From a bacterium (GTDB lineage: Bacteria; Zhuqueibacterota; Zhuqueibacteria; Residuimicrobiales; Residuimicrobiaceae), in assembly GCA_035353815.1 (NCBI GenBank), contig DAOQAG010000001.1, positions 17,159 to 81,158 on the forward strand: DNA of 64,000 nt, given 5' to 3'. The translations under genes were made by a program, and so were the position numbers. Positions 8,393 to 54,586 of this stretch are shown here, one piece after another (the first letter of the stretch is position 1; every line of letters begins with the position of its first letter). The notes beneath the pieces are model-generated. The model ran no database searches. It saw only the letters and a list, made by a program, of their open reading frames with translations, and was not told where the DNA came from.

Positions 8393-10765
8393 TCAGTCGG
8401 GCCGCAGCTCCACCACGGTCACCCCGCTGTTTCCTTCGTTCCAGTTGCCGAGGCGAGCCGCCGAGACCCGTGGGTGGTCACGCAGGAACCGGCCGATGGA
8501 GGCGCGCAGGGCTCCGGTCCCCTTGCCATGGATGATCCGCACCTCGGTAAAGCCGGCTATGACCGCCTCATCGAGGTAGCGTTCGACGCGCTCGATCGCC
8601 TCCTCGGCGCGCAAGCCGCGCAGATCCACTTCATGGCGCACCGTCTCGGTCTCATCGAGCGCAATGTGGGTGCCGCCCTGCCGCCGCAGCTCGCGGCGGC
8701 TTACCTTCTGCAGTTCCCCGAGGGGAGCCTTGATCTTGATCCCCTCGACGCGCACCAGCACCCGTCCCTGCTGGTCGGGTTCCGAAACCACCTCGCCGAC
8801 GCTGCTCATCTTCACCCAGCGTACCGCATCGCCATTGCGCACCGGGCCCGGTTCCACCCTCTCCGCCGGCGCGGCAATGACCTCCCGGGTCTGTTCCAGC
8901 ACCGCCTCGACCTGGTGCCGTTGCGCCTCCAGGGCCTGCTTGGCCGCCCGGATGGTTTCGGTCCGGGCCTGGTTTTCGCGGATCTCGCGGATCGTCTGTT
9001 CGACGGTGGTGTTGGTCTGGCGCAGGATCTCCTCCGCTTCAGCCGCCGCCTTGCGTTTGAGGGCCTTTTCCTCACGGTGCAGCGCGTCGCTGCGTTCCTG
9101 ATACAACTGGGCCAGGCCGCGGTATTCGCTTTCCCGCAGGTCCGCTGCACGGCCGGCCTCGTTGAAATGCTGGATCTTGCTCTCCAGCTCGAGGATCAAG
9201 CCCTCGAGGCGGTCCTTTTGCGCTCCGACCAGCTCCTGCGCCCGGCCGATCAAGGCGGGGGTGAGTCCCATCCGTCCGGCGATTTCAAAGGCATAGCTCG
9301 AGCCGGGGATGCCGGAGCGGAACCGGTAGGTGGGCCGGAGGGTCTCGACATCGAAGGCCATCGAGCCGTTCTCCACGCCCGGGGTCCGGTAGGCGAAGGC
9401 CTTGAGGGCGCTCTGGTGGGTGGTCGCCAGGGTCAGAACCCGGCGTGCGGTGAGCTCTTCGAGGATGGCCATGGCGAGGGCGGAACCCTCTTCGGGATCG
9501 GTGCCGGCGCCGATCTCGTCGATCAGGACCAGGCTGCCGGTCTCGGCGGCGGCGACGATCGCTTTCAGGCTGGCAAGGTGGGAGGAGAAGGTGGAGAGAT
9601 CGTTATCGATCGACTGCTGGTCGCCGATGCTGGCAAAAACCTGCGGGATGACGCCGATGCGGGAGTGCGGCAGGGCCGGGATGTGCAAACCGCTGCGGGC
9701 CATCAGGGTGAGCAGGCCCACCGTCTTGAGCGCCACGGTCTTGCCGCCGGCATTGGGGCCGCTGATGATGATCGAGCAGTGGTTTTCCCCAAGGGTAATG
9801 TCCAGGGGCACGACTTCCTTCTCGCCCATACGCAGCACCAGCAGGGGGTGGCGGCCGCCGGCAATTTGCAGGAGCGGCGCCTCCGCCAACTCCGGAGCAT
9901 GGGCATTGAGGCGCCGCGAAAAGACCCCCTGGGCATAGAGCTGGTCGATCTGGCCAAGCAGATCGAGATTCCTCTCGAGCACCGGCAGGGCTTCACGCAA
10001 CAGGTCGGCGAGACGGCGCAGGATCCGCTCCACTTCGCGGGCCTCCTCGGCCTGCAGCTCGCGGATGCGGTTGTTATCCTCCAGCGACTCCAGCGGCTCC
10101 ACAAAGAGGCTCGAACCGCTCGCCGATTGATCCAGGACCAGGCCGCGAACCTTGCGCTTGTACTCCTCCTTGACCATCAGCACCAGCCGGCCGTTGCGGA
10201 CCGTAACGATGTTCTCCTGGAGTACGCCTTGCCCGGCCAGCGACCGCAGCATCGCCTCGATGCGCTGGCGGGCCTGGTTTTGCGCTCGCGCCAGCTGTTT
10301 GCGCAATCCCGCCAGTTCAGGTGATGCCTCATCCTTGATCAGCAGGGTGTTCTCGTCGACGCAGCGGCGGATCTCCTTTTCAATCGCCTCCCGCGCCACC
10401 AGCTGTGCCGTGATGTGGTGCAAGTGGGGGGTCTTCTCCCGGCGTGCGGCAAAATAGGCGAGCAGCCGACGCGCTGCGGCGAGGGTTTGCTGGACGCGGA
10501 TGAGTTCTTCCGGAGGCAGATAGCTGCCGCCAATGCGCAGGCTTTTGAGGTGCGGCGCGAGGTCGTGAATGCCCTCCATGGGAAGCGCCTGATCGTAGTC
10601 GAGGAGATCGCGCATCTCGGTGGTCTGCGCCATACGCTCGGCCAGAAGTGCCGGCGCGAGCGGTTCGAGGGCGAGGGCGCGGCGATGACCCAGATCGGAG
10701 CTGGCGCATTCGGCCAGCTTTTCGCGCACCCGGTCAAATTCGAGGGTGATGAACGTGGAGATCAT
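8393..10765 (-). CDS. mutS2: Endonuclease MutS2 (MutS domains plus a C-terminal Smr domain)
   Basis: Walker A 'ISGPNAGGKTVALKT', 'LVLIDEIGAGTDPEEG', and the C-terminal Smr 'VDLRGLRAEEAIERVERYLDEAVIAGFTEVRIIHGKGTGALR'. Confidence 0.9.
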   Translation of the reverse strand: MISTFITLEFDRVREKLAECASSDLGHRRALALEPLAPALLAERMAQTTEMRDLLDYDQALPMEGIHDLAPHLKSLRIGGSYLPPEELIRVQQTLAAARRLLAYFAARREKTPHLHHITAQLVAREAIEKEIRRCVDENTLLIKDEASPELAGLRKQLARAQNQARQRIEAMLRSLAGQGVLQENIVTVRNGRLVLMVKEEYKRKVRGLVLDQSASGSSLFVEPLESLEDNNRIRELQAEEAREVERILRRLADLLREALPVLERNLDLLGQIDQLYAQGVFSRRLNAHAPELAEAPLLQIAGGRHPLLVLRMGEKEVVPLDITLGENHCSIIISGPNAGGKTVALKTVGLLTLMARSGLHIPALPHSRIGVIPQVFASIGDQQSIDNDLSTFSSHLASLKAIVAAAETGSLVLIDEIGAGTDPEEGSALAMAILEELTARRVLTLATTHQSALKAFAYRTPGVENGSMAFDVETLRPTYRFRSGIPGSSYAFEIAGRMGLTPALIGRAQELVGAQKDRLEGLILELESKIQHFNEAGRAADLRESEYRGLAQLYQERSDALHREEKALKRKAAAEAEEILRQTNTTVEQTIREIRENQARTETIRAAKQALEAQRHQVEAVLEQTREVIAAPAERVEPGPVRNGDAVRWVKMSSVGEVVSEPDQQGRVLVRVEGIKIKAPLGELQKVSRRELRRQGGTHIALDETETVRHEVDLRGLRAEEAIERVERYLDEAVIAGFTEVRIIHGKGTGALRASIGRFLRDHPRVSAARLGNWNEGNSGVTVVELRPD

Positions 10766-17777: not shown

Positions 17778-19706
17778 TTATTCTGCACTGCCCTCCTCCT
17801 TGGTCGCGTGCTCCTTTTCCTTGACCTCTTCATACCACGCCGGGAAGCGCTCCTCCGCCTCTTCTTCGGTTATCTTGCCGGTAAAGCCGGTAAGATTGAT
17901 CGGATAATCGGCGGGATGGAAAATCGCGAAAAACATATGATAGAGGAGGATGGCCAGAAACGCCAGCCAGGCTTCATAGAGGTGGATGACCTCGGCTACT
18001 TTGACGATCCATGCCGGCAGCAGAAAGGTTGCCGTGGTCGGGAACCAGAGAACAAAACCGGTCAGGGCCATGACCGCGGTACCCCATACCAGGGCCCAGT
18101 ACTCCGCCTTTTCGACATAGCCGTACCGTGCAAAGTTGGCGCGCTCCCGGCTGATCCCGAGATGATATTTCATATTGGCGATGAACTGGCGGACATCATC
18201 GATACCCGGCAACAGGGCTTTGAGTTCTCCGCGGGCGCTGCGCGCAAAGGCAAGATAGCCGAGGTGATAGATACCGGCTGCCAGCATCACCACCGCTGAA
18301 ATGCGGTGGATCAGGCCGCGCAACCCCTCGCTCAGGCCCAGGGTGGTCAGCAGTCGTGCCCATGCGGTGTTGGAGTATTTGAGGGCGAAGCCAGTGATCA
18401 CCAGCAGGGTAAAGGAGATAAAGATCGCCAGGTGCTGGATGATCCATGAACGGTCGAAGCGCTGGATCGTCTTTTGCAATTTTTGCGCCCGCCATTTGGC
18501 GCGGGCATATTTAAGCCAGATGATGAGATTGTGGAGCACCATGCCGCCGATCACCACGACGATCAGCCAGAGATACGCTTTGCCGATATAGCGGGCGAGA
18601 CGGTCGCCGAACGAATCGGGTTTGGCATGGATATAGCTCTGGGAAAATTCCTGGGTGGCATTGGGATGGCAGGAGCCGCAGGTCTTGCTGAGGTTGGCGA
18701 TGTGGATCGTCGAAGCCGGGTTGGACTGGGGCAGAATGGCATGGACGCCGTGGCAACTGGTGCAGTTGGCCGCCACCCGCGAACCCCGGTTGGTGGCCAG
18801 ACCGTGATAGCTGGCACGATAGGAGGTGACGGGATCGAGCGTAATGCCATATTTTTCATTCAACTGGAGCAGTCCATGGCAGGGGGCGCAGATCTTTTCC
18901 GAAACATTGGCCGCAGCGGTGGGTGAGGCCGCATCATCGGGGGAGAGGATTTCATGCTCGCCGTGGCAAAAGGTACACGTGGGCACCTCGGCGACACCCC
19001 GCGCCAGATCCATCCCGTGGATGCTGCCTTCGTATTCAGCCTCGACATCGCCATGACAGGTGCCGCAGGTTTTGGAGATATTGGCGCGAAACACCGGCGA
19101 CTGCGGATCGCTCGCGGAGCGCAAATGGTGGGGTTCGTGGCAGCTGCTGCAGGTCGCCGCCCCGTCATTGCCCGCCATCAAGGCTTTGCCATGCACCCCC
19201 CGGTTGAATTTCTCCACCGGCGCGGCAACGCGAATATCGTGCTTCTCGGCCAACCCTTTGTCGCGGTGGCAGGCGCCGCAGGTGGCCGGGAGGCGGGCCG
19301 GATGGGTGCGGGAGGCGGTCTCCAGGGAGCTGAGGATGTCATGTTTGCCGTGGCAATCGCTGCAGACCGGAGCGTCTGCATCGCCCGCCGCCAGCGCCTG
19401 GCTGTGGAGACCCTTGGCGAACTCGGCCGCGGCTTCGCTATGGCAGCGCGCACACTCCACCCGCTTGAGCGGCGAATCGTGGGGGTCGCCGACCGCATCG
19501 CGATGGCAATCCTTGCAATCCAGCCGGCCGTGCACCGATCGGGCAAAAACAGCTTCATCAACAAAGAGCGTATCTTCACCGCCCGAGGCATTGGGCCGCG
19601 TCATGGTGGAATCACCATGACAGACCGCACACGGGCTTTGCGCCAATGCACCCGCTGCGGCCAGAAGAATCGAGAAGAAGATAATGCTGAGGCCAGGTCT
19701 AGGCAT
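17778..19706 (-). CDS. Fusion cytochrome: a periplasmic 11-haem c-type domain joined to a C-terminal 4-helix dihaem b-type cytochrome (FdnI/HydC-like; the architecture of Geobacter CbcL)
   Basis: Signal peptide; 11 CxxCH motifs (CAVCH, CKDCH, CARCH, CSDCH, CGACH, CSSCH, CGTCH, CTFCH, CAPCH, CTSCH, CGSCH), mostly in a paired spacing. These are followed by 4 transmembrane helices with conserved His ('IQHLAIF', 'GLIHRISAVVMLAAGIYHLGYL', 'AEVIHLYEAWLAFLAILLYHMFFAIFHP'). Confidence 0.8.
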   Translation of the reverse strand: MPRPGLSIIFFSILLAAAGALAQSPCAVCHGDSTMTRPNASGGEDTLFVDEAVFARSVHGRLDCKDCHRDAVGDPHDSPLKRVECARCHSEAAAEFAKGLHSQALAAGDADAPVCSDCHGKHDILSSLETASRTHPARLPATCGACHRDKGLAEKHDIRVAAPVEKFNRGVHGKALMAGNDGAATCSSCHEPHHLRSASDPQSPVFRANISKTCGTCHGDVEAEYEGSIHGMDLARGVAEVPTCTFCHGEHEILSPDDAASPTAAANVSEKICAPCHGLLQLNEKYGITLDPVTSYRASYHGLATNRGSRVAANCTSCHGVHAILPQSNPASTIHIANLSKTCGSCHPNATQEFSQSYIHAKPDSFGDRLARYIGKAYLWLIVVVIGGMVLHNLIIWLKYARAKWRAQKLQKTIQRFDRSWIIQHLAIFISFTLLVITGFALKYSNTAWARLLTTLGLSEGLRGLIHRISAVVMLAAGIYHLGYLAFARSARGELKALLPGIDDVRQFIANMKYHLGISRERANFARYGYVEKAEYWALVWGTAVMALTGFVLWFPTTATFLLPAWIVKVAEVIHLYEAWLAFLAILLYHMFFAIFHPADYPINLTGFTGKITEEEAEERFPAWYEEVKEKEHATKEEGSAE

Positions 19707-24365: not shown

Positions 24366-27300
24366 TCAGCGCATCAACAGCATTTTGCGGGTCAGCGTCC
24401 GGCCGCCCTGGGTCAGGCGATAGAGATAGGTGCCGGTGCTCCAGCCCCGGGCATCGACGCTGATCTGGTGCCGGCCGGCCGGCTGCAACCCCTCTGCCAG
24501 TACCGCCACCTCGCGGCCGAGCAGATCATAGACAGCCAGGCGGACCGGAGCGGCCTGGGGCAGTTCGTAGCTGATCTGCGTCACCGGATTGAAGGGATTG
24601 GGATAGTTCTGCTCAAGGCCGAATCGGGCCGGGAGGGTTACCTCCGCCTGCTCCACCGCCGTGGGATTGGTGGTTTTGAGAACGACCACCAGGTTGTCCA
24701 GATAGATCGATCCGCTGGCGGCTGATCCGGCATCCGGGGCGAGCTGGATACTGTCAATCGTCAATTTGTTGCCGTCCAGGGTGCCGTTGGTCGCCAGCCA
24801 GGAGCCGACCACGCCGGGGTCGCTCATCTTCCATTCCACCAGCCGCCAGCCATACCAGTCGATCTTGACCCACTGGGTCACCTCCGGCAGGGTATTTTTG
24901 GCGGCCACCTCATCGATCGCCAGCCGGAAGAGCGAGCCGCTTCCATCTCCAAAAACCTGGATTTGCAGGGTATAGGTCGTGTCAAAGAAGACGGTGGCCG
25001 GGGTCGTGGCCGGATCGAGATAGACGCGGCAGAGGTGCTCGGCCGCTGCAGTATCCCACTGATAGCGCAGGGCGGCAGAATACTTTTGCGTCCCGAGGGA
25101 GTTGGGCAGCCATACGGTCCGGTCCATTTCAAACAGGGTCTTGGCGGCGATGGTGCCGACCGTCGAGCCGCTATAGCTGGGATCTTTCCAGTTGCTGGCG
25201 CCGAAGAATTTTTCGATGGTTACCTCCTTCAGCGTCCGCTCACCCCGGGTCTTTAAATCCAGATCGATGGGCTGGGGGATGATATTGCCGAAGGTGTCGC
25301 TGAGGGTCGGCTTCAGGAGCAGATGATAATCGGTGTTGATCTCGAGGGCTTTGGCCGGCTGGATCGAAAGCACCGAGCGGTTGCCCATGGGCACGTGCGC
25401 CCACATTGATTTGACGGGCACTCCGCCGATAGATACGAGGATCGTGGAGTCCTTGATGGAGGCGGGCAGGATCCGTTCATTGAACACGAGGTTGATCACC
25501 CCTTCAACCGCCATCGGCTCTTGCGTCCCGGCGGGATAGAGGGCGATCAGTTCCGGACCATTGAGATCGCGGGCATCGGTCGTGAAACGGATTTGAAAGG
25601 ATCCGCCCGCGGCGCCGTCGGCGTCGCCATCGAGCGCCGTGCCGTTGCGATCGCGGGCGGCATCACTCAGAGTCAAAGTATAGGTCGTTGCGAACGCCAG
25701 AGGTGCTGCCGGCTGCAGGGTCAGGGTGCGGTGGTCCGCGCTCCAGGAGATCTTGCCCACCGCGATCGCGGGCGTGATGCTCAGGGCGGCCGCCACCGAC
25801 GTGGAATCCATCCCCTTGCTGAAGACGAGGACCAGGTCATCGCCGACATGCACCGTATCGCTGTTGGCGGGTGTCGAGGCGAAGAGCCGCGGTGCGAAAG
25901 AGGGGACCGGGCCGGCTTCCGCCACATTCGAAGGCAGGGATTCGTTCCAGAACCGGTCCAGGGTCGTGGCATAATAATAGAAGGAGCCGGCGTGATCCTG
26001 CAAGCCATCAAAATGGTCGGTATAGCTGGCGCTGCCGCCGCACCAGAGAATGCGGAGCAGGGGATCTTGGTCCGGTCGCGGGGTATTTTCTTCAATGCGA
26101 TAGAGGGCGATGCGCTGCGGCGTGGTCAGGCCCGCTGGCAGGGTGACGGTCACCTCATAGGTCAACGAGTCGCGCCGGTTGACCGCGACGCCGGGCGATT
26201 CCGGCGTGGCCGTGGACAAAAAGCGCGCAGCACGTATCTTGGTCTTGTTCGAAAAAAAGGATGCTGCAGCCTCGCTGAAAAAGACGTTGTCTTCCCAGGT
26301 GCCATAGCTGAAGAACTGAAAGCCATCCACCCAGGGCACCATGCGGCAATAGTCGACGATCTCGGCATGATGATCCATGATCCGGTTTTCACTGAGGATA
26401 TAGGAGGGCGGGCCGACACTGTAGAGCCGGCCGGCGGCGATACCCTCCTGCAGGAAGGGGCCCCAACTGTTGCTGGGACCGGCGAGCATCTTGTAGAAAT
26501 CGGCGCCGACGGTCCAGTGATAGTGCATCGGCATCAGTTGGTCGACATAGCCGCGGTTGAACCAGAGCGCTGCGTCCTGATAGACCGTGCCGTAGCCCTG
26601 CCAGCCGCCCCAGTTATAGTTGCCGAGGACGGCCGCCGAAAGCCGCACCCAAGGCTTGGCGGCCTGAACGGAATCGTGCAGGGTGTGGACGAATTCGGTA
26701 ACCGACCAGCGCCACCACTCTTCCCAGGAGCCGAATCCGGCGGGCACCCCTGCACTGTAGGGATGCTCGACGTCATAGAGATAGCGCGAAGCCATGTTCG
26801 CCTGGAGATCGGCGAGTTCGGCCTCGCTGATCTGACCATCCAGCTTGGGGCGGGCGGGCTCCTTTTGCAGCGCCGCTGCACCGGATTCCTCGTTCCAGCG
26901 CACATAGTCGAGATGGAGGCCATCGATATCATAGCGGCGCACCAGATCCATCGCCACCGCCACGGTATACGCGCGCACCGCTGCCAGTCCGGGTGAGAGG
27001 GCGCGCGAGGCGTTCATCGGCTGGTCGCTGGAGTTGCGGCAGACCCATTCGGGATGGTCGCCGGACGGCGATCCGGGTGCGGTCGACGAACACTGGAAGC
27101 TGTTGAACCAGGCGTGCAGCTCCAGGCCGCGGTTGTGGGCTTGCTCGATGGCATAGGCCAGGGGGTCGAAGCCCGGATCCATGCTGTCCAGATAGCTGCC
27201 CCACGGTTCAAAGCTGGAGGCATAATAGGCCGTGCCAGCCTGGCGCACCTGCCAGACCACGGCGTTCATGTTGGCTTTCTCGTGATCATCGAGAATCTTG

Positions 27301-27446
27301 CGGATGCGCGCCTTGACTGTCTCGACCGGCTGATGCCCGCCATAGATCTCCCAGGTGATGACCCAGGTAGCGCGAAACTCGCTGGTCTCAGCGGCCCAGA
27401 GTGCACTGCAACAAAAGAGCAGCCCACAGAGAAAATACTTTTTCAT
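24366..27446 (-). CDS. Secreted T9SS cargo protein: N-terminal glycoside-hydrolase-like family 10 domain (GHL10/PF02638), SbsA-type Ig (Big_5) repeats and a T9SS CTD
   Basis: Signal 'MKKYFLCGLLFCCSALWA'; GHL10 'FRATWVITWEIYG ... NMNAVVWQVRQAGTAYYASSFEPWGSYL ... GLELHAWFN'; Big_5-like 'ALSITPAIAVGKISWSADHRTLTLQPAAPLAFATTYTLTLS'; CTD 'QNYPNPFNPVTQISYELPQAAPVRLAVYDLLGREVAVL ... GTYLYRL ... KMLLMR'. Confidence 0.75.
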   Translation of the reverse strand: MKKYFLCGLLFCCSALWAAETSEFRATWVITWEIYGGHQPVETVKARIRKILDDHEKANMNAVVWQVRQAGTAYYASSFEPWGSYLDSMDPGFDPLAYAIEQAHNRGLELHAWFNSFQCSSTAPGSPSGDHPEWVCRNSSDQPMNASRALSPGLAAVRAYTVAVAMDLVRRYDIDGLHLDYVRWNEESGAAALQKEPARPKLDGQISEAELADLQANMASRYLYDVEHPYSAGVPAGFGSWEEWWRWSVTEFVHTLHDSVQAAKPWVRLSAAVLGNYNWGGWQGYGTVYQDAALWFNRGYVDQLMPMHYHWTVGADFYKMLAGPSNSWGPFLQEGIAAGRLYSVGPPSYILSENRIMDHHAEIVDYCRMVPWVDGFQFFSYGTWEDNVFFSEAAASFFSNKTKIRAARFLSTATPESPGVAVNRRDSLTYEVTVTLPAGLTTPQRIALYRIEENTPRPDQDPLLRILWCGGSASYTDHFDGLQDHAGSFYYYATTLDRFWNESLPSNVAEAGPVPSFAPRLFASTPANSDTVHVGDDLVLVFSKGMDSTSVAAALSITPAIAVGKISWSADHRTLTLQPAAPLAFATTYTLTLSDAARDRNGTALDGDADGAAGGSFQIRFTTDARDLNGPELIALYPAGTQEPMAVEGVINLVFNERILPASIKDSTILVSIGGVPVKSMWAHVPMGNRSVLSIQPAKALEINTDYHLLLKPTLSDTFGNIIPQPIDLDLKTRGERTLKEVTIEKFFGASNWKDPSYSGSTVGTIAAKTLFEMDRTVWLPNSLGTQKYSAALRYQWDTAAAEHLCRVYLDPATTPATVFFDTTYTLQIQVFGDGSGSLFRLAIDEVAAKNTLPEVTQWVKIDWYGWRLVEWKMSDPGVVGSWLATNGTLDGNKLTIDSIQLAPDAGSAASGSIYLDNLVVVLKTTNPTAVEQAEVTLPARFGLEQNYPNPFNPVTQISYELPQAAPVRLAVYDLLGREVAVLAEGLQPAGRHQISVDARGWSTGTYLYRLTQGGRTLTRKMLLMR

Positions 27447-27470
27447 TCCCAACCTCAATGATGGTTTGTG

Positions 27471-27525
27471 CAAAAAAATCCGCTGCGGCCGCCCCGGCTG
27501 GGGCTGCAAAATCACAGCGGATTTT
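27471..27525 (-). terminator. Rho-independent terminator after partner gene 1 (compound hairpin with a T-tract)
   Basis: On the minus strand: AAATCCGCTG ... CAGCGGATTT, enclosing an inner GCCCC/GGGGC hairpin, then TTTTTTT. Confidence 0.55.
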
Positions 27526-48820: not shown

Positions 48821-50167
48821 TTAAAGCAGATCACTCGCCAGTTCGGCCAGCGGCGACCGCTCCCCCTTTTCCAGCGTGACATGGGCATACATCCCATGAC
48901 CGTGCATGCGGTTGATCAGATAATTCAGCCCGGTCGACCGGCTGTCGAGGTAGGGGGTGTCGATCTGCGAGGGATCGCCGGTGAATACCACTTTGGTGCC
49001 CTCCCCCGCCCGGGTGATGATCGTTTTGATCTCGTGCGGCGTCAGATTCTGCGCTTCGTCGACGATGAAATAGATATGATCGAGACTGCGGCCGCGAATA
49101 TAGGCCAGCGGCGCAATCTCGAGCTTGCCGCTCTCGAGCATTTCGCCAATGCGCTGCGCCCGCTCATCACTCTCCTTGAACTGGTTGCGGATGACGCCGA
49201 GATTGTCATAGAGGGGCTGCATATAGGGATCGAGCTTGGATTCGATGTCACCGGGCAAATAGCCAAGATCCTTGTTCGACAGGGCCACCACCGGCCGCGC
49301 CAGAAAGATCTGCCGGTACTCCTTGCGGCGCTCAAGCGCAGCCGCCAGGGTCAGCAAGGTCTTGCCGGTGCCGGCCTTGCCGCTCAAGGTCACCAGCGGC
49401 ACCGCGGGATTGAGCAGGGCGTGCAGGGCAAAAGACTGCTCGGCATTGCGCGGCGTAATGCCGTAGGCCTGCAGCTTTTCGACACGTTCGAGCATTTGGG
49501 ATTGGGGATTGTAGCAGGCAAGCACCGATTTGCTGGCGTTGCGGAGGATAAAGTATTCGTTGGCTACAGGATCTTCGATCTCCGCTTCGGCAGCAGCGAT
49601 TTCAAAGGGGGTGGCAAAGAGTCGGTTAATGATCTCCGGATTGACTTCCTCGATCAACCGCTTGCCGCGGTAGAGTTTGTCGATATCCTTGATCTTGTCG
49701 GTGGTATAATCCTGGGATTCCAGTCCCAGAGCACGCGCCTTGAGCCGCAGGTTGACATCCTTGCTGACCAGAATGACCTGGGCGGCGCGTCCGGATTTTT
49801 GCAGGGAGAGAGCGGCACTGAGGATGCGATGGTCGGGGCTCTGTTCCAGGAACGCCCGATGGACTTCCGGCTCTTCATCAAAGAGGGTGAGAATGGAGAT
49901 ATGGCCACGCCCTTCGCCGAGGCTCACACCCCCCTTGACCAAGGCATCGCCGGGGAAGGTATCGAGCAAACGGACAAATTCCCGGGCGTGATAGTTGATA
50001 AGATCCTGACCCCGTTTGAAGGCGTCGATCTCTTCAATGACGGTGATCGGGATGACAATGTCGTTTTCCTGGAAAAAAAAGATACAGCCGGAATCATGCA
50101 GAATAACATTTGTATCAAGGACAAAGGTCTTCTTCAACGCCTCCTCCTGCGCACACTCCATTAGCAC
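48821..50167 (-). CDS. PhoH-like ATPase with an N-terminal PIN domain (PhoH2/YlaK family)
   Basis: PIN '[11 protein letters not shown] ... [10 protein letters not shown]' and PhoH Walker A '[18 protein letters not shown]'. Confidence 0.85.
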
Positions 50168-50273: not shown

Positions 50274-50474
50274 CGGGTACGGATACAACCAGCATACCTT
50301 GCCGGATTCCACTTCAGCTAAACCTGCTGCGGTAAAAAGGCGGACACGGGTACAGCCGGCATACCTTGCCGGATTCCACTTCAGCTAAACCCGCTGCGGT
50401 AAAAAGGCGGACACGGGTACAGCCGGCATACCTTGCCGGATTCCACTTCAGCTAAACCCGCTGCGGTAAAAAGG
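50274..50474. repeat. Three tandem ~67-bp direct repeats (copies 2 and 3 identical, copy 1 degenerate at its 5' end), each containing the palindrome CCGGCA-TACCT-TGCCGG
   Basis: The unit CGGACACGGGTACAGCCGGCATACCTTGCCGGATTCCACTTCAGCTAAACCCGCTGCGGTAAAAAGG occurs at 50341-50407 and 50408-50474, with a degenerate copy at about 50274-50340. It lies in the divergent intergenic region directly upstream of the -35 element of the PHP-UvrD gene. Confidence 0.85.
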
Positions 50475-50503
50475 TTGGCACTCTGCGAAAAAATGCGTAT
50501 ATT
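50475..50503 (+). promoter_or_regulatory. Sigma-70-like promoter (TTGGCA-N17-TATATT) for the PHP-UvrD gene
   Basis: TTGGCA at 50475-50480, a 17-nt spacer, TATATT at 50498-50503, about 55 nt before the ATG at 50559. Confidence 0.45.
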
Positions 50504-50558
50504 AAAGTATTCTCAGCATCCCGTCATTTCCTTCCAATCCGCAGAGGCCCCCGGCGTC

Positions 50559-53534
50559 ATGAGGTTTGTCGCTGATCTCCATATCCATTCCCGCTATTCC
50601 CGCGCCACCAGCAGCCAGCTGGTCCCGGAGCAGCTCTGGCGTTGGAGCCAGCTCAAGGGCGTTCAGGTCATTGCCACCGGGGATATCAGCCATCCCGCCT
50701 GGCTCGAGGAGCTGCGCGCCGCACTGGATCCGGCCCCGGCTGCCGAAGGTCTGTTCACCCTGAAACCCGCCATTGCCGCAAATCTCGCCGCGGCTGTGCC
50801 CCCCGCCTGCCACCGGGAGACCTTTTTTATCCTCTCCGGGGAAATCAGCAGCATCTATAAAAAGGATGGCGCGGTACGCAAGGTCCATTCGGTGGTCTTC
50901 CTCCCCGGCTTTGACGCCGCCGCACGGTTCCAGCAGCGCCTCGAACGGATCGGCAATATCCGCTCCGACGGCCGGCCCATCCTCGGTCTCGATGCCCATG
51001 ACCTGCTGGAGATCGTCCTCGAAACCGATCCCGGGGCGCGTCTTGTTCCGGCGCACATCTGGACGCCGTGGTTTTCGGTGCTCGGCTCGCAGTCGGGATT
51101 CGATTCCCTCACGGCCTGTTTCGGCGACCTAACTTCGTATCTTTTCGCGGTCGAAACCGGCCTCTCCTCCGATCCGCCCATGAACTGGCGCCTCTCGATG
51201 CTCGACAACCTGACGCTGATCTCCAATTCCGACGCCCATTCCCCGGAAAAACTCGGCCGTGAGGCCAACCTCTTCGACACCGAGCTCTCCTACCCCGCCC
51301 TCTTTGCCGCGCTCGCCGGCCAAAACGACGGCACCTTTCTCGGCACCATCGAGTTTTTCCCCGAAGAGGGCAAATATCACATGGATGGCCACCGCAAGTG
51401 CAGCCAGATGATGCGCCCCCCCGAGACCCTCCGCCACAGCGGCCTCTGCCCGGTTTGCGGCAAGCCGGCCACGCTTGGGGTCAGTTACCGCGTCGAGGAA
51501 CTGGCGGATCGCCCGGAGGGCTTCCGGCCGGAGGGCGCGCGGGCCTTCCACAGCCTGATTCCCCTGACTGAACTGCTCGGCGAGGTCTATAGCACCGGCC
51601 CGGCCAGCAAAAAGGTGCAGGGTCTCTATCACGCCCTGCTGCGCGATCTTGGCCCCGAGCTGTCGATCCTGATGGAGATTCCCTTGCTGGAACTCGAGCG
51701 CACCGCAGGCCCCATGGTGGCTGAAGCCATCCGCCGCATGCGCAGCGGTCAGATCGACGCCCAACCCGGCTACGACGGCGAATATGGCCACATCGCGTTG
51801 TTCAAACCCGATGAGCGCGCCCGTTGGCTGCAGCAGGCCGCCCTCTTTACCCCACCCTCGGCTCCTGTTCTGGCGCCTGAAGCCGTACCGTCTACGGGCG
51901 ACAACCACTCCCGCAGAAAACGGCAGCGCGCCGCCGAGGAGACCCCCGGCCCCTGGGGCCTCAATGCCGAACAGCTTGCCGCCGTGGCCCATCGCGACAC
52001 CCCCCTCATTCTCCGCGCCGGCCCCGGCACCGGCAAAACCCGGACCCTGACCAGCCGGATCGCCCGCCTGCTGGCGGAGGAGTACGCCCGCCCCGAGGAA
52101 TGCCTCGCCATCACCTTTACCCGCAAAGCCGCCGCCGAGATGCGCTCACGCCTGGAACAGATGATCGGAGCGGAAAAAACCGCCGCCCTGCGCATCCACA
52201 CCTTTCACGGCTTCGGTCAAGAAATCCTCAGCGCGGCCGGCGAGTGCTTTGGCCGGCACCCCGGATTCCACCTCATCGATGCCGAAAACGACGAATCCTT
52301 CCGCCAGGCCGTCTCGACGCGCTGCGGCGAGCGGCTCAGCGCGACCGCCCTGCAGCGCATTTCCGCCCTCAAGGGACTGCTCTACACTCCGGACACCCTG
52401 CCGGAGGAACTCGCCCACACCCTGCCGGCTGCCCTGCCCGCCCTTTTCCGCACCTATGAGAGCCTGCTCGTAGAATGGAATGGCGTTGATTTTGATGACC
52501 TGATCGCCCTGCCGGTACGCCTCCTCCGCTTCGACGCCGAACTGCGCCGCCGCCAGCTCGAGCGGGTCCAGGTCATCGCCGTCGATGAATTCCAGGACAT
52601 CAATACCGCCCAGTACGAACTCTTTCTCCTCTTTGCCCTGCACGCCCGTGATGTCTGCGTCATCGGCGATCCAGATCAGTCGATCTATGGTTTTCGCGGC
52701 GCGAGCCCCGAATTCTTCGAGCGCATGCAGCAGGATTTCCCCACCGCGAGCCGCATGAACCTGCGCCAGAATTACCGCTCCACGCGGCCCATTCTTGCCG
52801 CATCGTCCGCCATGCTGCGCCAGGGCGCGGCGCCTGCCCCCGAGGATATGCTGATCGCCCGCCTCGAGTCGGACCTGCGGATCCAGCTGCACACCGCGCC
52901 TTCGGATCTGGCCGAAGCGATATTTGTCGTGCAGGAGATCGAATCCCTGATGGGTGGGACGAGTCACTTGGCCCTGGACAGCAGCACCGCACCGGCAGGC
53001 GACGGAAGTTACAGCTTTGGCGACTTTGCCGTTCTGCTGCGCAGCCGCTTGCTCGCCGCGCCCCTGGAGGAAGCCTTTGCCCGGAGCGGATTGCCCTTCA
53101 AACGCCTCGATGACGAGTATGAAAAGGATCGCGCCGATTTGGCCCGCGGCGCAACCGCCGGCACCGTGGCAACCAGCGAACCCGCTGCAGCGGGCCTTGA
53201 TCCGCGCGGCGACCGCATTCAATGCCTGACGCTGCATGCCGCGAAGGGGCTGGAGTTCCCGGTGGTCTTTATCATCGGTTGCGAGGAGAACCTCATTCCT
53301 TTTTCCCTCGGCGGCGGTGGCGATCTGGAGGAAGAACGCCGGCTTTTTTATGTCGGCATGACCCGGGCCCGCGAGCGCCTCTACCTGACCAACGCCCGGC
53401 AGCGCATGCTGCGCGGCCAGCGCCATCTCCAGACCCCCTCGCGCTTTCTCGAGGACATCGGCCGCCCGCTGCTGCAACGGCATCATGCTGCGCGGCAGCG
53501 GCGCACCCCCAGCGATCAAATGAATCTTTTCTGA
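50559..53534 (+). CDS. Fusion protein: an N-terminal PHP-family phosphoesterase domain (TIGR00375-like, with a CxxC...CxxC zinc ribbon) joined to a C-terminal UvrD/PcrA-type superfamily-1 helicase
   Basis: I chose the Met at 50559 because '[18 protein letters not shown]' is a typical PHP start. PHP His/Asp motifs 'IWTPWFSV' and '[18 protein letters not shown]'; zinc ribbon '[11 protein letters not shown]'. Helicase motifs: I 'AGPGTGKT', Ia '[10 protein letters not shown]', II 'VDEFQDIN', III '[13 protein letters not shown]', IV 'QNYRS', V '[17 protein letters not shown]', VI '[14 protein letters not shown]'. Confidence 0.75.
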
Positions 53535-53545
53535 CAGGATGACGT

Positions 53546-54586
53546 ATGAAACCTATCGATTTGCGCAGTGATACCGTTACCAAACCGACCCCGGAAATGC
53601 GCGCCGCCATTGCCGCCGCTGAGGTAGGGGATGATGTTTTCGGCGAGGACCCGACGGTCAACCGGCTCCAGGCCAGGGTCGCCGCTCTCTTGGGCAAGGA
53701 AGCGGCCCTCTATGTCAGCAGCGGCACCCAGAGCAATCAGCTGGCGATCAAGAGCCATACCGAACCGGGTCACGAAATTTATTGCGAAGAGAACGGCCAT
53801 ATCTTCAACTATGAGGCCGGCGCCCCCGCCGCCCTGTCGGGCGTGCAGGTCCGCCCCCTGCCCGGTGTGCGCGGGGCCATCACCGCCGCCCAGATCGAGG
53901 CGGTGCTGCGGCCACCGGACCACCACAATCCCCAGTCCCGCCTGGTGGTGCTCGAAAATACCCACAACCGCGCCGGCGGTGCGATCTTTCCCTTTGCCGA
54001 GATCGAAAAGATCCACACCCTGACCCGGCAAAAGGGGCTCGCCCTCCATCTCGATGGCGCGCGGCTCTGGAATGCCCATGTGGCCACCGGCATCCCCTTG
54101 CTGGAGTACGGCCGTCTCTTCGATTCGATCTCGGTGTGCCTCTCCAAGGGATTGGGAGCCCCGGTGGGCTCGGTGCTCACGGGATCGGCTGAATTTATCG
54201 ACCGCGCCCACCGCTACCGCAAAATGTGGGGCGGCGGCATGCGCCAGGCCGGCCTGCTCGCCGCAGCCGGCCTCTACGCCCTCGACCATCATATCGCACG
54301 CCTCGCCGACGATCATCGCCATGCGCGACAGATTGCCGATACTTTTTTAAAATTTCCGCCGATCGAGGTCGATCTCGAAGCGACGCAAACCAATATCGTC
54401 ATCGTCGAGCTGAGAAAAAGTGGATTAAATGCGCCCGATTTGGTTGTTAAACTGAAAGACAAGGGTGTGCTTTGCCTGGCCACGGCCCCGACCCGCCTGC
54501 GTCTCGTCACCCATCTCGACGCCGACGATATGGCGATCACCGAGGCCTGCGGCTTGATCGAGACCGTCCTGCGCAACCTGTTGTAA
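53546..54586 (+). CDS. ltaE: Low-specificity L-threonine aldolase
   Basis: '[38 protein letters not shown] ... [11 protein letters not shown] ... [14 protein letters not shown]' includes the PLP-Lys motif. Confidence 0.85.

What the first reader, a model, noticed from the sequence alone, without database searches (positions are those of the whole stretch)
50559..53534. PHP phosphoesterase domain fused in-frame to a UvrD/PcrA-type helicase
Seen: residues ~1-440 match the stand-alone PHP family that starts '[14 protein letters not shown]' and contains a CxxC...CxxC ribbon ('[11 protein letters not shown]', 'C..H..C' upstream). Residues ~480-990 carry all seven SF1 UvrD motifs ('AGPGTGKT', '[10 protein letters not shown]', 'DEFQD', '[13 protein letters not shown]', 'NYRS', 'HAAKGLEF', '[10 protein letters not shown]'). 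Established: PHP domains are metal-dependent phosphoesterases, some of them 3'-5' exonucleases (PolX and DnaE accessory domains), and UvrD-like helicases unwind 3'-5'. Inference: this is a single-chain helicase-nuclease/phosphatase for DNA end processing or repair, analogous in logic to AddA/RecB but with a PHP nuclease in place of a RecB nuclease. Its distribution and function are, to my knowledge, poorly characterised. It is co-transcribed with ltaE (12-nt gap) and divergent from a PIN-PhoH2 gene.
Basis: partly seen in the sequence, partly recalled or inferred. Interest (0 to 1): 0.55.

Follow-up and report, generated by a model that had tools for sequence, protein, structure and literature searches.

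The report
Endonuclease Q fused to UvrD-type helicase
This gene encodes one protein that joins a damaged-base-nicking enzyme (Endonuclease Q) to a UvrD/PcrA-type DNA helicase and ends in a sliding-clamp-binding tail; the architecture is real, widespread in bacteria and listed in the literature since 2016, but never tested biochemically.

Summary
In detail: 50559-53534 (+) is one uninterrupted 991-aa ORF. It is a complete Endonuclease Q (EndoQ) module (PfuEndoQ E 1.4e-45; model/crystal TM 0.89, rmsd 2.3 A). All metal ligands, the deaminated-base pocket and the Trp wedge are invariant; one zinc-site Cys is replaced by His. The C-terminal half is a UvrD/PcrA/Rep motor with every ATPase motif.

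The protein ends in QMNLF, a beta-clamp-binding motif present in 99/107 complete relatives (3/653 in control ORFs). The fusion occurs in at least 600 species-level genomes across many phyla. Shiraishi et al. 2016 (Suppl. Fig. S1) already tabulated these ~950-1240-aa "bacterial EndoQ homologs" with their clamp motifs, so the family is known at sequence level; I found no biochemistry.

New here: the window's clade has precisely deleted the autoinhibitory 2B subdomain, and a second, internal QxxLF sits at the fusion junction.

Most likely function: clamp-tethered alternative excision repair, nicking 5' of dU/dI/AP and then peeling the damaged strand. An AddA/RecB-like end-processing role is not supported. 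Interest is moderate.

The parts
50475..50503 (+). Best sigma-70-like promoter match (TTGGCA-17-TATATT), 56 nt upstream of the ATG
   Evidence: 10 of 12 consensus positions. This is a consensus match only; 2 sites were found against 1.2 expected in shuffles, so support is weak.
50559..53534 (+). Whole gene: long-form bacterial EndoQ (EndoQ + UvrD/PcrA-type helicase + clamp-binding tail), 991 aa plus TGA stop
   Evidence: P0001 is 100% identical and is named only 'UvrD-helicase domain-containing protein'.
50559..51359 (+). EndoQ PHP catalytic subdomain (res 1-267). Metal ligands H8, H10, E95, H110, H166, D225 (+H227); lesion pocket H166, T169, E199, G201, L202, S203, N223, D225; wedge W171
   Evidence: Residue map to PfuEndoQ (H8, H10, E76, H84, H139, D193, H195, T142, W144, E167, G169, L170, S171, N191). 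All are invariant across 8 fusion and 4 archaeal sequences. The roles of these residues come from PMC5961232 and PMC8307549.
51360..51560 (+). EndoQ Zn-binding subdomain (res 268-334); zinc ligands H278, C281, C297, C300 (His replaces Pfu Cys249)
   Evidence: The Cys-to-His swap is present in all 8 fusion sequences aligned with the archaeal EndoQs, and H278 is nearly invariant in the 128-sequence alignment.
51561..51854 (+). EndoQ C-terminal helical subdomain (res 335-432), ending in an internal QAALF (res 426-430, nt 51834-51848), a candidate second or relic clamp motif
   Evidence: Aligns with PfuEndoQ up to residue 382; fold match covers about 417 columns. Q-x-x-[LMIF]-F sits at a fixed offset of 15 residues after GYDGEYG in 98/116 close clusters, against 6.4% of control windows.
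51855..51956 (+). Disordered interdomain linker (res 433-466), variable in length across the family
   Evidence: pLDDT below 50 for res 434-458; heavily gapped alignment columns.
51957..53108 (+). SF1A helicase subdomains 1A/1B and the first part of 2A (res 467-850): Walker A GPGTGKT 488-494, Ia [17 protein letters not shown] 676-680, [21 protein letters not shown] 738-741
   Evidence: Aligns to PcrA 12-379 and to UvrD1 22-403.
53109..53204 (+). 32-residue low-complexity linker (res 851-882) in place of the whole 2B subdomain
   Evidence: The alignment jumps from PcrA 379 to 555 and stops at UvrD1 residue 403. The UvrD1 2B domain is aa 404-585 (PMC13646824). pLDDT is below 50 at 867-880. Relatives such as P0110 align through the full 2B including the RGIG motif.
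53205..53462 (+). Second part of helicase subdomain 2A (res 883-968): motif [10 protein letters not shown], motif VI VGMTRA
53463..53531 (+). Basic disordered tail (res 969-991) ending in QMNLF (res 987-991, nt 53517-53531), a candidate beta-clamp-binding motif at the exact C-terminus
   Evidence: Q987, L990 and F991 are invariant. Strict Q[LM]xL[FLI] is in 99/107 complete clusters (90 at the very end) and 38/51 GTDB loci, against 3/653 neighbouring ORFs. pLDDT is below 50. The same motif is listed for long bacterial EndoQ homologues in PMC4858679 Suppl. Fig. S1.

Best explanation
The gene encodes a long-form bacterial Endonuclease Q.

Shown by sequence and fold: an intact EndoQ lesion-specific endonuclease, a flexible linker, an intact UvrD/PcrA-type SF1A ATPase motor that lacks its 2B subdomain, and a disordered tail ending in a beta-clamp-binding pentapeptide.

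Inferred mechanism: the protein carries out a self-contained, clamp-tethered alternative excision (nucleotide incision) repair.
1. The EndoQ module flips a deaminated base (U, Hx, X) or an AP site into its pocket. It nicks the strand immediately 5' of the lesion, leaving a 3'-OH and a 5'-phosphate on the damaged nucleotide.
2. The fused motor loads at that nick, most sensibly on the undamaged strand. It translocates 3'->5' and so peels the lesion-bearing strand away as a 5' flap. This also releases the otherwise tightly product-bound EndoQ.
3. The clamp bound through QMNLF keeps the enzyme at the 3'-OH and hands it to a polymerase. A flap nuclease or 5'-exonuclease and a ligase finish the repair.

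In the window's clade, loss of the autoinhibitory 2B domain implies a helicase that is active as a monomer. Its licensing then has to come from the EndoQ module or the clamp.
For: Identity:
- Continuous ORF.
- PfuEndoQ E 1.4e-45 over its full length.
- A high-confidence model (pLDDT 90.2) superposes on the EndoQ crystal structure with target TM 0.89-0.90 and rmsd 2.3 A, and on UvrD/PcrA/Rep with target TM 0.60-0.67.
- All metal ligands, pocket residues, the wedge Trp and DNA-contact residues Lys272 and Lys351 are conserved.
- PF27218 (MJ0043_C) is the only Pfam family on the biochemically characterised P. furiosus and T. kodakarensis EndoQs, and it is present on all fusions.
- All helicase motifs are invariant.

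Selection on the architecture:
- At least 600 species genomes across more than 12 phyla.
- 133 of the 150 closest 50%-identity representatives are 900 aa or longer.

Clamp link:
- C-terminal Q[LM]xL[FLI] in 99/107 relatives against 3/653 control ORFs.
- Archaeal EndoQ binds PCNA through a C-terminal PIP box and is stimulated by it (PMC4858679).
- The same authors noted beta-clamp motifs in the bacterial homologues.

Need for a motor:
- EndoQ stays bound to its nicked product (PMC5961232).
- The discoverers' repair model invoked strand displacement or 'removal by helicase activity' (PMC4357722).

2B:
- The deletion falls exactly at the 2B boundaries.
- Engineered delta-2B Rep and UvrD1 gain helicase activity (PMC13646824).
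- The natural 2B-less PcrA-s is a highly active helicase (PMC3720892).
Against: - No activity of any long-form EndoQ has been measured. Substrate range, strand choice, polarity and clamp binding are all inferred.
- The TIGR00375 curated cutoff is not reached (166.7 against 326.6 bits), and the PcrA/UvrD/Rep equivalog cutoffs are far from reached.
- The first Zn ligand differs (His for Cys), DNA-contact Lys276 of PfuEndoQ is not conserved, and there are two family-specific insertions, so specificity may differ.
- A close stand-alone relative (P0344, 55% identical) has neither helicase nor clamp motif, so the motor is not obligatory for the nuclease.
- Mycobacterial UvrD1 works in NER without needing helicase activity (PMC13646824), so the motor could act as a translocase or protein remover.
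- No conserved neighbour (polymerase, ligase or flap nuclease) supports a dedicated pathway.
Confidence: 0.6

Rival explanations
1. Same protein identity, but the motor is not a strand-peeling helicase. It acts as an ATP-driven translocase that scans DNA for lesions, or strips the product-bound EndoQ module and other proteins off the nick, as UvrD1 does in NER. Excision is then left to polymerase strand displacement.
For: Mycobacterial UvrD1 acts in NER through ATP hydrolysis without needing helicase activity (PMC13646824). EndoQ remains bound to nicked product (PMC5961232). UvrD-family monomers are translocases that need activation to unwind (abstracts). Most family members keep a full or mini 2B domain, which would hold the helicase in check.
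Against: In the window's clade 2B is gone, and in Rep, UvrD1 and PcrA-s that state gives robust unwinding. Nothing here separates the two readings computationally.
Confidence: 0.25
2. One reading: a helicase-nuclease/phosphatase for DNA-end processing, analogous to AddA/RecB, with the PHP domain acting as a 3'-5' exonuclease or 3'-phosphatase.
For: Some PHP domains are exonucleases or phosphoesterases (established knowledge). The helicase half gives weak partial matches to AddA and RecB models (E 1e-33 to 1e-38, far below cutoffs). AddA, RecB and AdnB appear as lower-ranked fold matches.
Against: - The module is a complete EndoQ with the flipped-base pocket and wedge. It carries Ser14 and Arg (Pfu 114) where the related phosphoesterase BadPE has the two residues that bind its third metal.
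- There is no PD-(D/E)XK domain, and the protein ends about 55 aa after motif VI.
- No AddB/RecC/RecD-like partner is encoded nearby in any of 78 loci.
- The AddA and RecB matches cover only the shared SF1A core.
Confidence: 0.07
3. An anti-phage or anti-foreign-DNA nuclease-helicase that attacks uracil- or hypoxanthine-containing or otherwise modified invading DNA.
For: A review notes that bacterial EndoQ 'may participate in antiviral defense' and that the B. subtilis enzyme is not blocked by the phage inhibitor Ugi (PMC8307549). The helicase half hits PADLOC GajB models.
Against: - The PADLOC hits are generic UvrD-core matches, nothing hits the EndoQ half, and there is no GajA partner.
- The gene sits among housekeeping genes (sigma-70, pyrE, pyrF, a tRNA synthetase, recO) in conserved synteny within its clade.
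- A conserved replication-clamp motif fits chromosomal repair better.
Confidence: 0.05
4. The EndoQ module is a catalytically dead lesion sensor or DNA-binding domain that merely targets the helicase.
For: None specific. Domain degeneration after fusion is common in general.
Against: All six metal ligands plus His227 are invariant in the 12 sequences mapped. In the 128-sequence alignment E95, H110, H166, D225 and H227 are invariant and H8 and H10 are at least 90% conserved. E76, H84, H139 and D193 of PfuEndoQ are essential for cleavage (PMC5961232).
Confidence: 0.03

Closest known systems
Long-form bacterial EndoQ homologues tabulated by Shiraishi et al. 2016 (e.g. Caldilinea aerophila WP_014432234, Geobacter metallireducens WP_004512662, Sorangium cellulosum WP_012236160, Desulfovibrio vulgaris WP_012612878; about 945-1244 aa)
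   Same: Same size class and the same C-terminal QL[DS]LF-type clamp motif. The same genera and families recur among the full-length fusions found here: Caldilineaceae, Sorangium, Saccharopolyspora, Opitutaceae, Desulfobacterales.
   Different: The window's protein (991 aa) and its clade lack the 2B subdomain that most of these keep. The published table gives only motif positions. I found no held text that names the extra ~600 aa as a helicase. The 2017 paper that defines three EndoQ families 'by domain organization' (cited in PMC5961232) could not be read.
Archaeal and Bacillus Endonuclease Q (P. furiosus PF1551, T. kodakarensis TK0887, B. pumilus EndoQ; PDB 5zb8, 7k30-7k33)
   Same: All three subdomains, all catalytic and pocket residues and the wedge Trp. 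Both put a sliding-clamp-binding motif at the C-terminus.
   Different: About 30-33% identity. His replaces the first zinc Cys; there are insertions of 17 and 7 residues; Lys276 is not conserved. An SF1A motor is fused on, and the motif is of the beta-clamp type, not a PCNA PIP box.
UvrD / PcrA / Rep (SF1A helicases)
   Same: Motifs Q, I, Ia, II, III, IV, V and VI, and the 1A/1B/2A fold. Family relatives such as P0110 align with PcrA 11-662 including 2B and the GIG motif.
   Different: Not an orthologue: 366 bits against a 911-bit PcrA cutoff. The window's copy has no 2B. The alignment to PcrA ends at residue 649 of 724, so the C-terminal extension is replaced by a clamp-binding tail. An N-terminal EndoQ is attached.
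Natural or engineered 2B-less SF1A helicases (M. pneumoniae PcrA-s; E. coli Rep-delta2B; M. smegmatis UvrD1-delta2B)
   Same: The entire 2B is removed at the same boundaries. These proteins are active or hyperactive helicases.
   Different: Those are stand-alone motors. Here the deletion happened inside a nuclease fusion, and it happened independently at least twice in the family.
AddA / RecB / AdnB helicase-nucleases
   Same: An SF1A motor and a nuclease in one polypeptide.
   Different: Their nuclease is a C-terminal PD-(D/E)XK domain acting on DSB ends together with partner subunits. Here the nuclease is an N-terminal PHP-type lesion-specific nickase with no partner genes.
Nick-then-unwind systems: MutH/MutL-UvrD in mismatch repair, RepD-PcrA in rolling-circle replication, UvrC-UvrD in NER (my own knowledge of these systems)
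   Same: A site-specific nick becomes the entry point for a UvrD-family motor that displaces the nicked strand. This is the logic proposed here.
   Different: In those systems nickase and helicase are separate proteins coupled by protein-protein contacts, often through 2B (MutL-UvrD, cited). Here they are covalently joined.

Membership tests
Endonuclease Q (TIGR00375 / Pfam PF27218 MJ0043_C) | PHP-type active site with ligands equivalent to Pfu H8, H10, E76, H84, H139, D193 | tested here: met
   H8, H10, E95, H110, H166, D225 (+H227) are conserved in all 12 aligned sequences. E95, H110, H166, D225 and H227 are invariant, and H8 and H10 at least 90% conserved, in the 128-sequence alignment.
Endonuclease Q (TIGR00375 / Pfam PF27218 MJ0043_C) | Deaminated-base pocket (Pfu H139, T142, E167, G169, L170, S171, N191, D193) and wedge Trp144 | tested here: met
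   H166, T169, E199, G201, L202, S203, N223, D225 and W171 are all conserved. Only Pfu L168, a main-chain contact, becomes Thr (roles).
Endonuclease Q (TIGR00375 / Pfam PF27218 MJ0043_C) | Four-ligand Zn-binding subdomain plus C-terminal helical subdomain | tested here: met
   H278, C281, C297, C300 (His replaces the first Cys throughout the fusion family). The fold match covers the whole 400-residue crystal chain (TMt 0.89-0.90, rmsd 2.3 A).
Endonuclease Q (TIGR00375 / Pfam PF27218 MJ0043_C) | Curated family-model score | tested here: inconclusive
   NCBIfam TIGR00375 gives E 1e-48 but 166.7 bits against a 326.6-bit cutoff. PF27218 is absent from the local Pfam copy. It is precomputed on the identical protein P0001 and on all relatives, and it is the sole family on characterised EndoQs.
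Endonuclease Q (TIGR00375 / Pfam PF27218 MJ0043_C) | [quoted passage not shown] | not testable with these tools
   Needs an enzyme assay. Only stand-alone archaeal and Bacillus enzymes have been assayed.
UvrD/PcrA/Rep SF1A helicases | Conserved motifs Q, I, Ia, II, III, IV, V, VI | tested here: met
   Pfam UvrD-helicase scores 219 bits against a 23-bit cutoff; UvrD_C scores 118.5 against 25.6. The motifs are located and are invariant.
UvrD/PcrA/Rep SF1A helicases | Four-subdomain architecture 1A/1B/2A/2B | tested here: not met
   2B is replaced by a 32-residue linker. It is present in other family members.
UvrD/PcrA/Rep SF1A helicases | Orthology to PcrA, UvrD or Rep (NCBIfam equivalog cutoffs) | tested here: not met
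   PcrA 365.8 against 911; Rep 317.9 against 951; UvrD 280.2 against 1144.
UvrD/PcrA/Rep SF1A helicases | 3'->5' ssDNA translocation and unwinding | not testable with these tools
   Inferred from family membership only.
AddA/RecB-type helicase-nucleases | C-terminal PD-(D/E)XK (RecB-family) nuclease domain | tested here: not met
   No such Pfam or NCBIfam domain. AddA and RecB models match only the motor core, far below cutoffs. The protein ends 55 aa after motif VI.
AddA/RecB-type helicase-nucleases | Adjacent partner subunit gene (AddB, RecC/RecD, AdnA) | tested here: not met
   No conserved neighbour in 78 loci. The window's neighbours are PIN-PhoH2 and a threonine aldolase.
Beta-clamp (DnaN)-binding proteins | QL[SD]LF-like pentapeptide, typically at a disordered terminus | tested here: met
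   QMNLF is the exact C-terminus. It is conserved in 99/107 relatives against 3/653 controls and is disordered in the model. The motif definition is cited.
Beta-clamp (DnaN)-binding proteins | Physical binding to the clamp cleft | not testable with these tools
   Needs SPR, pull-down or co-structure work. Only the archaeal EndoQ-PCNA interaction has been measured (KD 55 nM).
Gabija (GajA/GajB) defence system | GajB helicase encoded next to a GajA ATPase-nuclease | tested here: not met
   GajB models hit the UvrD core only. No GajA-like neighbour is present.

The most novel reading that the evidence does not exclude
Long-form EndoQ is a one-polypeptide, clamp-docked 'nick-and-peel' excision repair machine, and it may be the predominant form of EndoQ in bacteria. 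In it the lesion-recognising nuclease has taken over the gating role of the 2B subdomain. That would explain why 2B is repeatedly shrunk or deleted in this family, including in the window's clade. It would also explain two clamp-binding motifs, one at the fusion junction and one at the C-terminus, which could engage both clefts of a DnaN dimer.
Probability: 0.3. Interest if true: 0.6.

Novelty: new member of a known kind. Interest (0 to 1): 0.4.

Why it matters
EndoQ is usually described as an archaeal (Thermococcales and methanogen) enzyme found in only 'a few bacteria'. These data show something different:
- The helicase-fused form occurs in at least 600 bacterial species genomes across many phyla.
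- It makes up most of the closest family representatives.
- It is annotated only as 'UvrD-helicase domain-containing protein'.

If it works as proposed, many bacteria have a glycosylase-independent way to remove uracil, hypoxanthine and AP sites. That route would be physically tied to the replication clamp, with the incision and strand-removal steps hard-wired together.

The family is also a natural experiment on the disputed role of the 2B subdomain in UvrD-family helicases. It contains full, mini and absent 2B versions of the same enzyme, ready for side-by-side biochemistry.

Tried and rejected
- PADLOC gave only generic UvrD-core (GajB, RTasHel) hits and nothing on the EndoQ half, so a defence reading is not supported.
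- Neighbourhood clustering of 78 loci found no conserved partner gene. The dnaN and gyrB proximity in 8 and 7 loci looks like lineage synteny.
- The first AF2 run, with 14 sequences, was poor in the EndoQ half (pLDDT 65.6). It was replaced by a 128-sequence run. Model coordinates are not exposed, so I could not measure active-site distances or the interdomain interface.
- Two key papers could not be read: Shiraishi 2017 (the three EndoQ families) and Shi 2021 PNAS. Whether 'family 3' is explicitly described as a helicase fusion therefore remains unverified.
- Literature searches for EndoQ+UvrD, EndoQ+'helicase domain', 'PHP domain'+UvrD+fused, and TIGR00375 found no description of the fusion.
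- Rfam and tRNA scans of the window were empty.
- The upstream 67-nt repeat has no significant fold (z -0.39) and is not conserved in relatives.
- The category labels are unreliable because my motif VI pattern was too strict. Only lengths and tails from that call were used.
- P0344 was tested as a possible 'split gene' and is a true stand-alone EndoQ with no adjacent helicase.


Full report
OBSERVATION. The window has a single uninterrupted ORF from 50433 to 53534 on the + strand. All relatives begin M[RK][FY][IV]ADLHIHS, and the upstream TTG lies inside a tandem repeat. The real start is therefore ATG 50559, giving 991 aa plus a TGA stop.
- Pfam finds UvrD-helicase (res 468-728, E 1.3e-64) and UvrD_C.
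- NCBIfam finds TIGR00375 (E 1e-48) and sub-threshold PcrA/Rep/UvrD matches.
- The generic PHP model PF02811 does not hit.
- The neighbours are as described: a divergent PIN-PhoH2 and a downstream threonine aldolase 11 nt after the stop.

WHAT THE N-TERMINAL HALF IS. Residues 5-414 align with the whole of Pyrococcus furiosus Endonuclease Q (PDB 5zb8, 7k30-33; E 1.4e-45). EndoQ nicks DNA immediately 5' of dU, dI, dX and AP sites, leaving a 3'-OH and a 5'-phosphate (PMC4357722). It consists of a PHP catalytic domain, a C4 zinc domain and a helical domain (PMC5961232). I aligned four archaeal EndoQs, including the characterised P. furiosus and T. kodakarensis enzymes, with eight fusion proteins and mapped each functional residue:
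- Metal ligands: H8/H10/E76/H84/H139/D193 map to H8/H10/E95/H110/H166/D225. His195 maps to H227.
- Pocket: T142/E167/G169/L170/S171/N191 map to T169/E199/G201/L202/S203/N223.
- Wedge: W144 maps to W171.

All of these are invariant in that alignment. Ser14 and Arg114 are also kept; in the related phosphoesterase BadPE the corresponding two residues help bind a third metal, which PfuEndoQ does not bind at that site. Differences from the archaeal enzymes:
- The first zinc ligand is His (H278) instead of Cys in all eight fusion sequences.
- Pfu Lys276 is not conserved.
- There are two insertions, of 17 and 7 residues.

With a 128-sequence alignment AlphaFold gives a confident model (pLDDT 90.2). 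Its N-terminal half superposes on the EndoQ crystal structure at target TM 0.89-0.90 and rmsd 2.3 A. The newer Pfam family PF27218 (MJ0043_C) is the only family on the characterised EndoQs and is precomputed on all fusion proteins.

WHAT THE C-TERMINAL HALF IS. Residues 467-968 are an SF1A motor with all motifs intact. It is not an orthologue of PcrA, UvrD or Rep: it scores 366 bits against the 911-bit PcrA cutoff.

The alignment to PcrA runs 12-379 and resumes at 555. The alignment to M. tuberculosis UvrD1 stops at residue 403. Warren & Shuman define the UvrD1 2B domain as aa 404-585 (PMC13646824). The window's protein is therefore a precise natural delta-2B, with a 32-residue disordered linker (res 851-882) in its place.

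This is a property of the lineage and not of the family:
- P0110 aligns continuously with PcrA 11-662, including 2B and its RGIG motif.
- The spacing from motif IV to motif V is 155-162 in the window's seven-cluster clade, against 216-301 elsewhere (median 240 over all 116 clusters measured); PcrA is about 280.
- L012 (Adiutricales) lost 2B independently with different boundaries, and several phyla carry a mini-2B.

Deleting 2B in Rep or UvrD1 unmasks helicase activity. The natural 2B-less PcrA-s of M. pneumoniae is a highly active helicase.

THE TAIL. The protein ends in QMNLF. Q987, L990 and F991 are invariant in the first alignment.
- Strict Q[LM]xL[FLI] occurs in the last 15 residues of 99/107 complete clusters, and is the exact C-terminus in 90.
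- It occurs in 38/51 GTDB loci with complete C-termini.
- It occurs in 3/653 neighbouring ORFs used as a control.
- The tail is disordered in the model.

This matches the bacterial beta-clamp-binding consensus QL[SD]LF.

A second Q-x-x-[LMIF]-F (QAALF, res 426-430) sits at a fixed offset at the end of the EndoQ module. It is present in 98/116 close clusters, 72/125 diverse representatives and 30/71 GTDB loci, against 6.4% of control windows. This is where short-form bacterial EndoQs end with their clamp motif. It suggests that a helicase was appended to a short-form EndoQ.

DISTRIBUTION AND CONTEXT.
The best 80 match the query over nearly its full length wherever the contig allows. They come from Chloroflexota, Planctomycetota, Actinomycetota (Micromonospora, Streptomyces, Saccharopolyspora), Myxococcota (Sorangium), Desulfobacterota (Desulfonema magnum), Bacteroidota, Spirochaetota, Nitrospirota, Gemmatimonadota, Firmicutes, Verrucomicrobiota and several candidate phyla.
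- An exhaustive search with the EndoQ half finds 1078 50%-identity representatives at E <= 1e-30. Of the 150 best, 133 are 900 aa or longer.
- There is no conserved neighbour across phyla.
- The TonB-receptor / PhoH2 / fusion / ltaE / sigma-70 / pyrE / pyrF / tRNA synthetase / recO arrangement is conserved only in the immediate clade.
- A close stand-alone relative exists (P0344, 423 aa) with no helicase nearby and no clamp motif.
- PADLOC sees only the generic UvrD core.
- The window itself looks like an ordinary chromosome of an FCB-group or KSB1-like bacterium: MutS2, a T9SS-sorted protein and housekeeping genes. The nearest named relatives are KSB1.

WHAT IS ALREADY KNOWN.
- The 2015 discovery paper noted homologues in Bacillus and Desulfovibrio.
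- The 2016 PCNA paper states that beta-clamp consensus motifs occur at the C-termini of bacterial EndoQ homologues. Its Supplementary Fig. S1 lists two size classes, about 405-464 aa and about 945-1244 aa, with motif positions. The long class is the architecture found here.
- The 2018 structure paper says EndoQs were divided into three families 'based on the domain organization'. The 2017 paper defining them could not be read.
- I found no held paper that calls the extension a helicase or reports any activity for a long-form enzyme.
- Only stand-alone archaeal and Bacillus enzymes have been assayed.

MECHANISM (inference). EndoQ leaves a nick 5' of the lesion and stays on its product. Its discoverers proposed either strand-displacement synthesis or 'removal by helicase activity'. 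A covalently attached UvrD-family motor is the obvious way to supply that step.
- From family knowledge the motor moves 3'->5'. Loaded on the undamaged strand at the nick, it would travel in the 5'->3' sense of the damaged strand and peel off the lesion-bearing 5' end.
- This matches how PcrA works at a RepD-made nick and how UvrD works after MutH or UvrC incision (my own knowledge of those systems).
- The clamp motif would hold the enzyme at the 3'-OH and pass it to a polymerase. This parallels PCNA binding and stimulation of archaeal EndoQ.
- Loss of 2B in the window's clade predicts a monomer-active helicase, so control must come from the EndoQ module or the clamp.

The main rival keeps the same identity but treats the motor as a translocase or protein remover, as for UvrD1 in NER.

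VERDICT. This is a new member of the long-form bacterial EndoQ family, which is known at sequence level but uncharacterised. It carries a lineage-specific deletion of 2B. Interest is moderate. The existence of the fusion would not surprise a repair specialist. Its breadth, the absence of any biochemistry, and the natural 2B series make it a worthwhile experimental target.

Noticed in passing
window 50279-50474 (+): A 67-nt tandem repeat, 2.9 copies at 96% identity. It lies in the divergent intergenic region between PIN-PhoH2 and the EndoQ-helicase gene and ends exactly at the best promoter-like site (50475-50503). It occurs nowhere else in the window, has no significant RNA fold, and is absent from the same intergenic region in relatives L081 and L085.
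   Followed up: partly
window 51834-51848 (res 426-430, QAALF): An internal Q-x-x-[LMIF]-F at a fixed position at the end of the EndoQ module. It is present in 98/116 close clusters against 6.4% of control windows. This is where short-form bacterial EndoQs carry their C-terminal clamp motif, so it may be a relic of the fusion event or a second clamp contact. It lies at the end of a predicted helix, so its accessibility is uncertain.
   Followed up: partly
L012 (Adiutricales MAG), L015/L022 (Gastranaerophilales-like), L018, L014, L006, L053; compare L039 and P0110: Within the fusion family the 2B subdomain ranges from full (with the GIG motif) through mini-2B to absent. The complete loss in L012 is independent of the window's clade and has different boundaries.
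   Followed up: yes
P0216 (Thermococcus barophilus, 421 aa, PF27218 only): UniRef names a stand-alone archaeal EndoQ 'DNA helicase II'. This looks like annotation transferred from the bacterial fusion proteins. Conversely, the fusions are named only 'UvrD-helicase domain-containing protein' or 'ATP-dependent DNA helicase Rep'.
   Followed up: no
L036, L041 and related Desulfobacterales loci: In 8 of 78 loci a dnaN (beta-clamp) gene lies on the opposite strand 1-4 genes from the fusion gene (upstream in seven of them). In 7 loci gyrB lies 2-5 genes upstream, i.e. in the origin-proximal dnaN-gyrB cluster. This is probably lineage synteny, but it is notable given the clamp motif.
   Followed up: no
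window res 84 and 187 (Cys84 nt 50808-50810; Cys187 nt 51117-51119): Two cysteines are conserved in the fusion family. C187 is invariant and C84 at least 90% conserved in A1; both are at least 90% conserved across A2. C84 lies in the 17-residue insertion that archaeal EndoQ lacks. They could form an extra metal or redox site. No distances could be measured.
   Followed up: no
L086/L087 5001-6272 (P0344): A stand-alone 423-aa EndoQ, 55% identical to the window's EndoQ half. It has no adjacent helicase and no clamp motif, and sits next to a ParE/Phd toxin-antitoxin pair. The module therefore also exists on its own among close relatives.
   Followed up: partly
window 48821-50167 (-): The divergent neighbour is a PIN-PhoH2 protein. 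Its NCBIfam 'RNA 5'-3' helicase PhoH2' score is 274 bits, below the 680-bit equivalog cutoff. It is syntenic with the fusion gene only in the close clade.
   Followed up: no
window 53546-54586 (+): The downstream 'ltaE' passes the low-specificity L-threonine aldolase equivalog cutoff (321.7 against 312) and also the GntG-family PLP aldolase subfamily cutoff (420.6 against 230). In relative P0002 its start overlaps the fusion gene's stop by 4 nt.
   Followed up: no
window 8393-10765 (-), 17778-19706 (-), 24366-27515 (-): Other genes in the window: MutS2 (MutS_V + Smr); a multihaem cytochrome c fused to a cytochrome b561-type membrane domain; and a GHL10 glycosyl-hydrolase-like protein with a T9SS C-terminal sorting domain, which fits an FCB-group organism. 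The 64-kb window has no tRNA and no Rfam hit.
   Followed up: no
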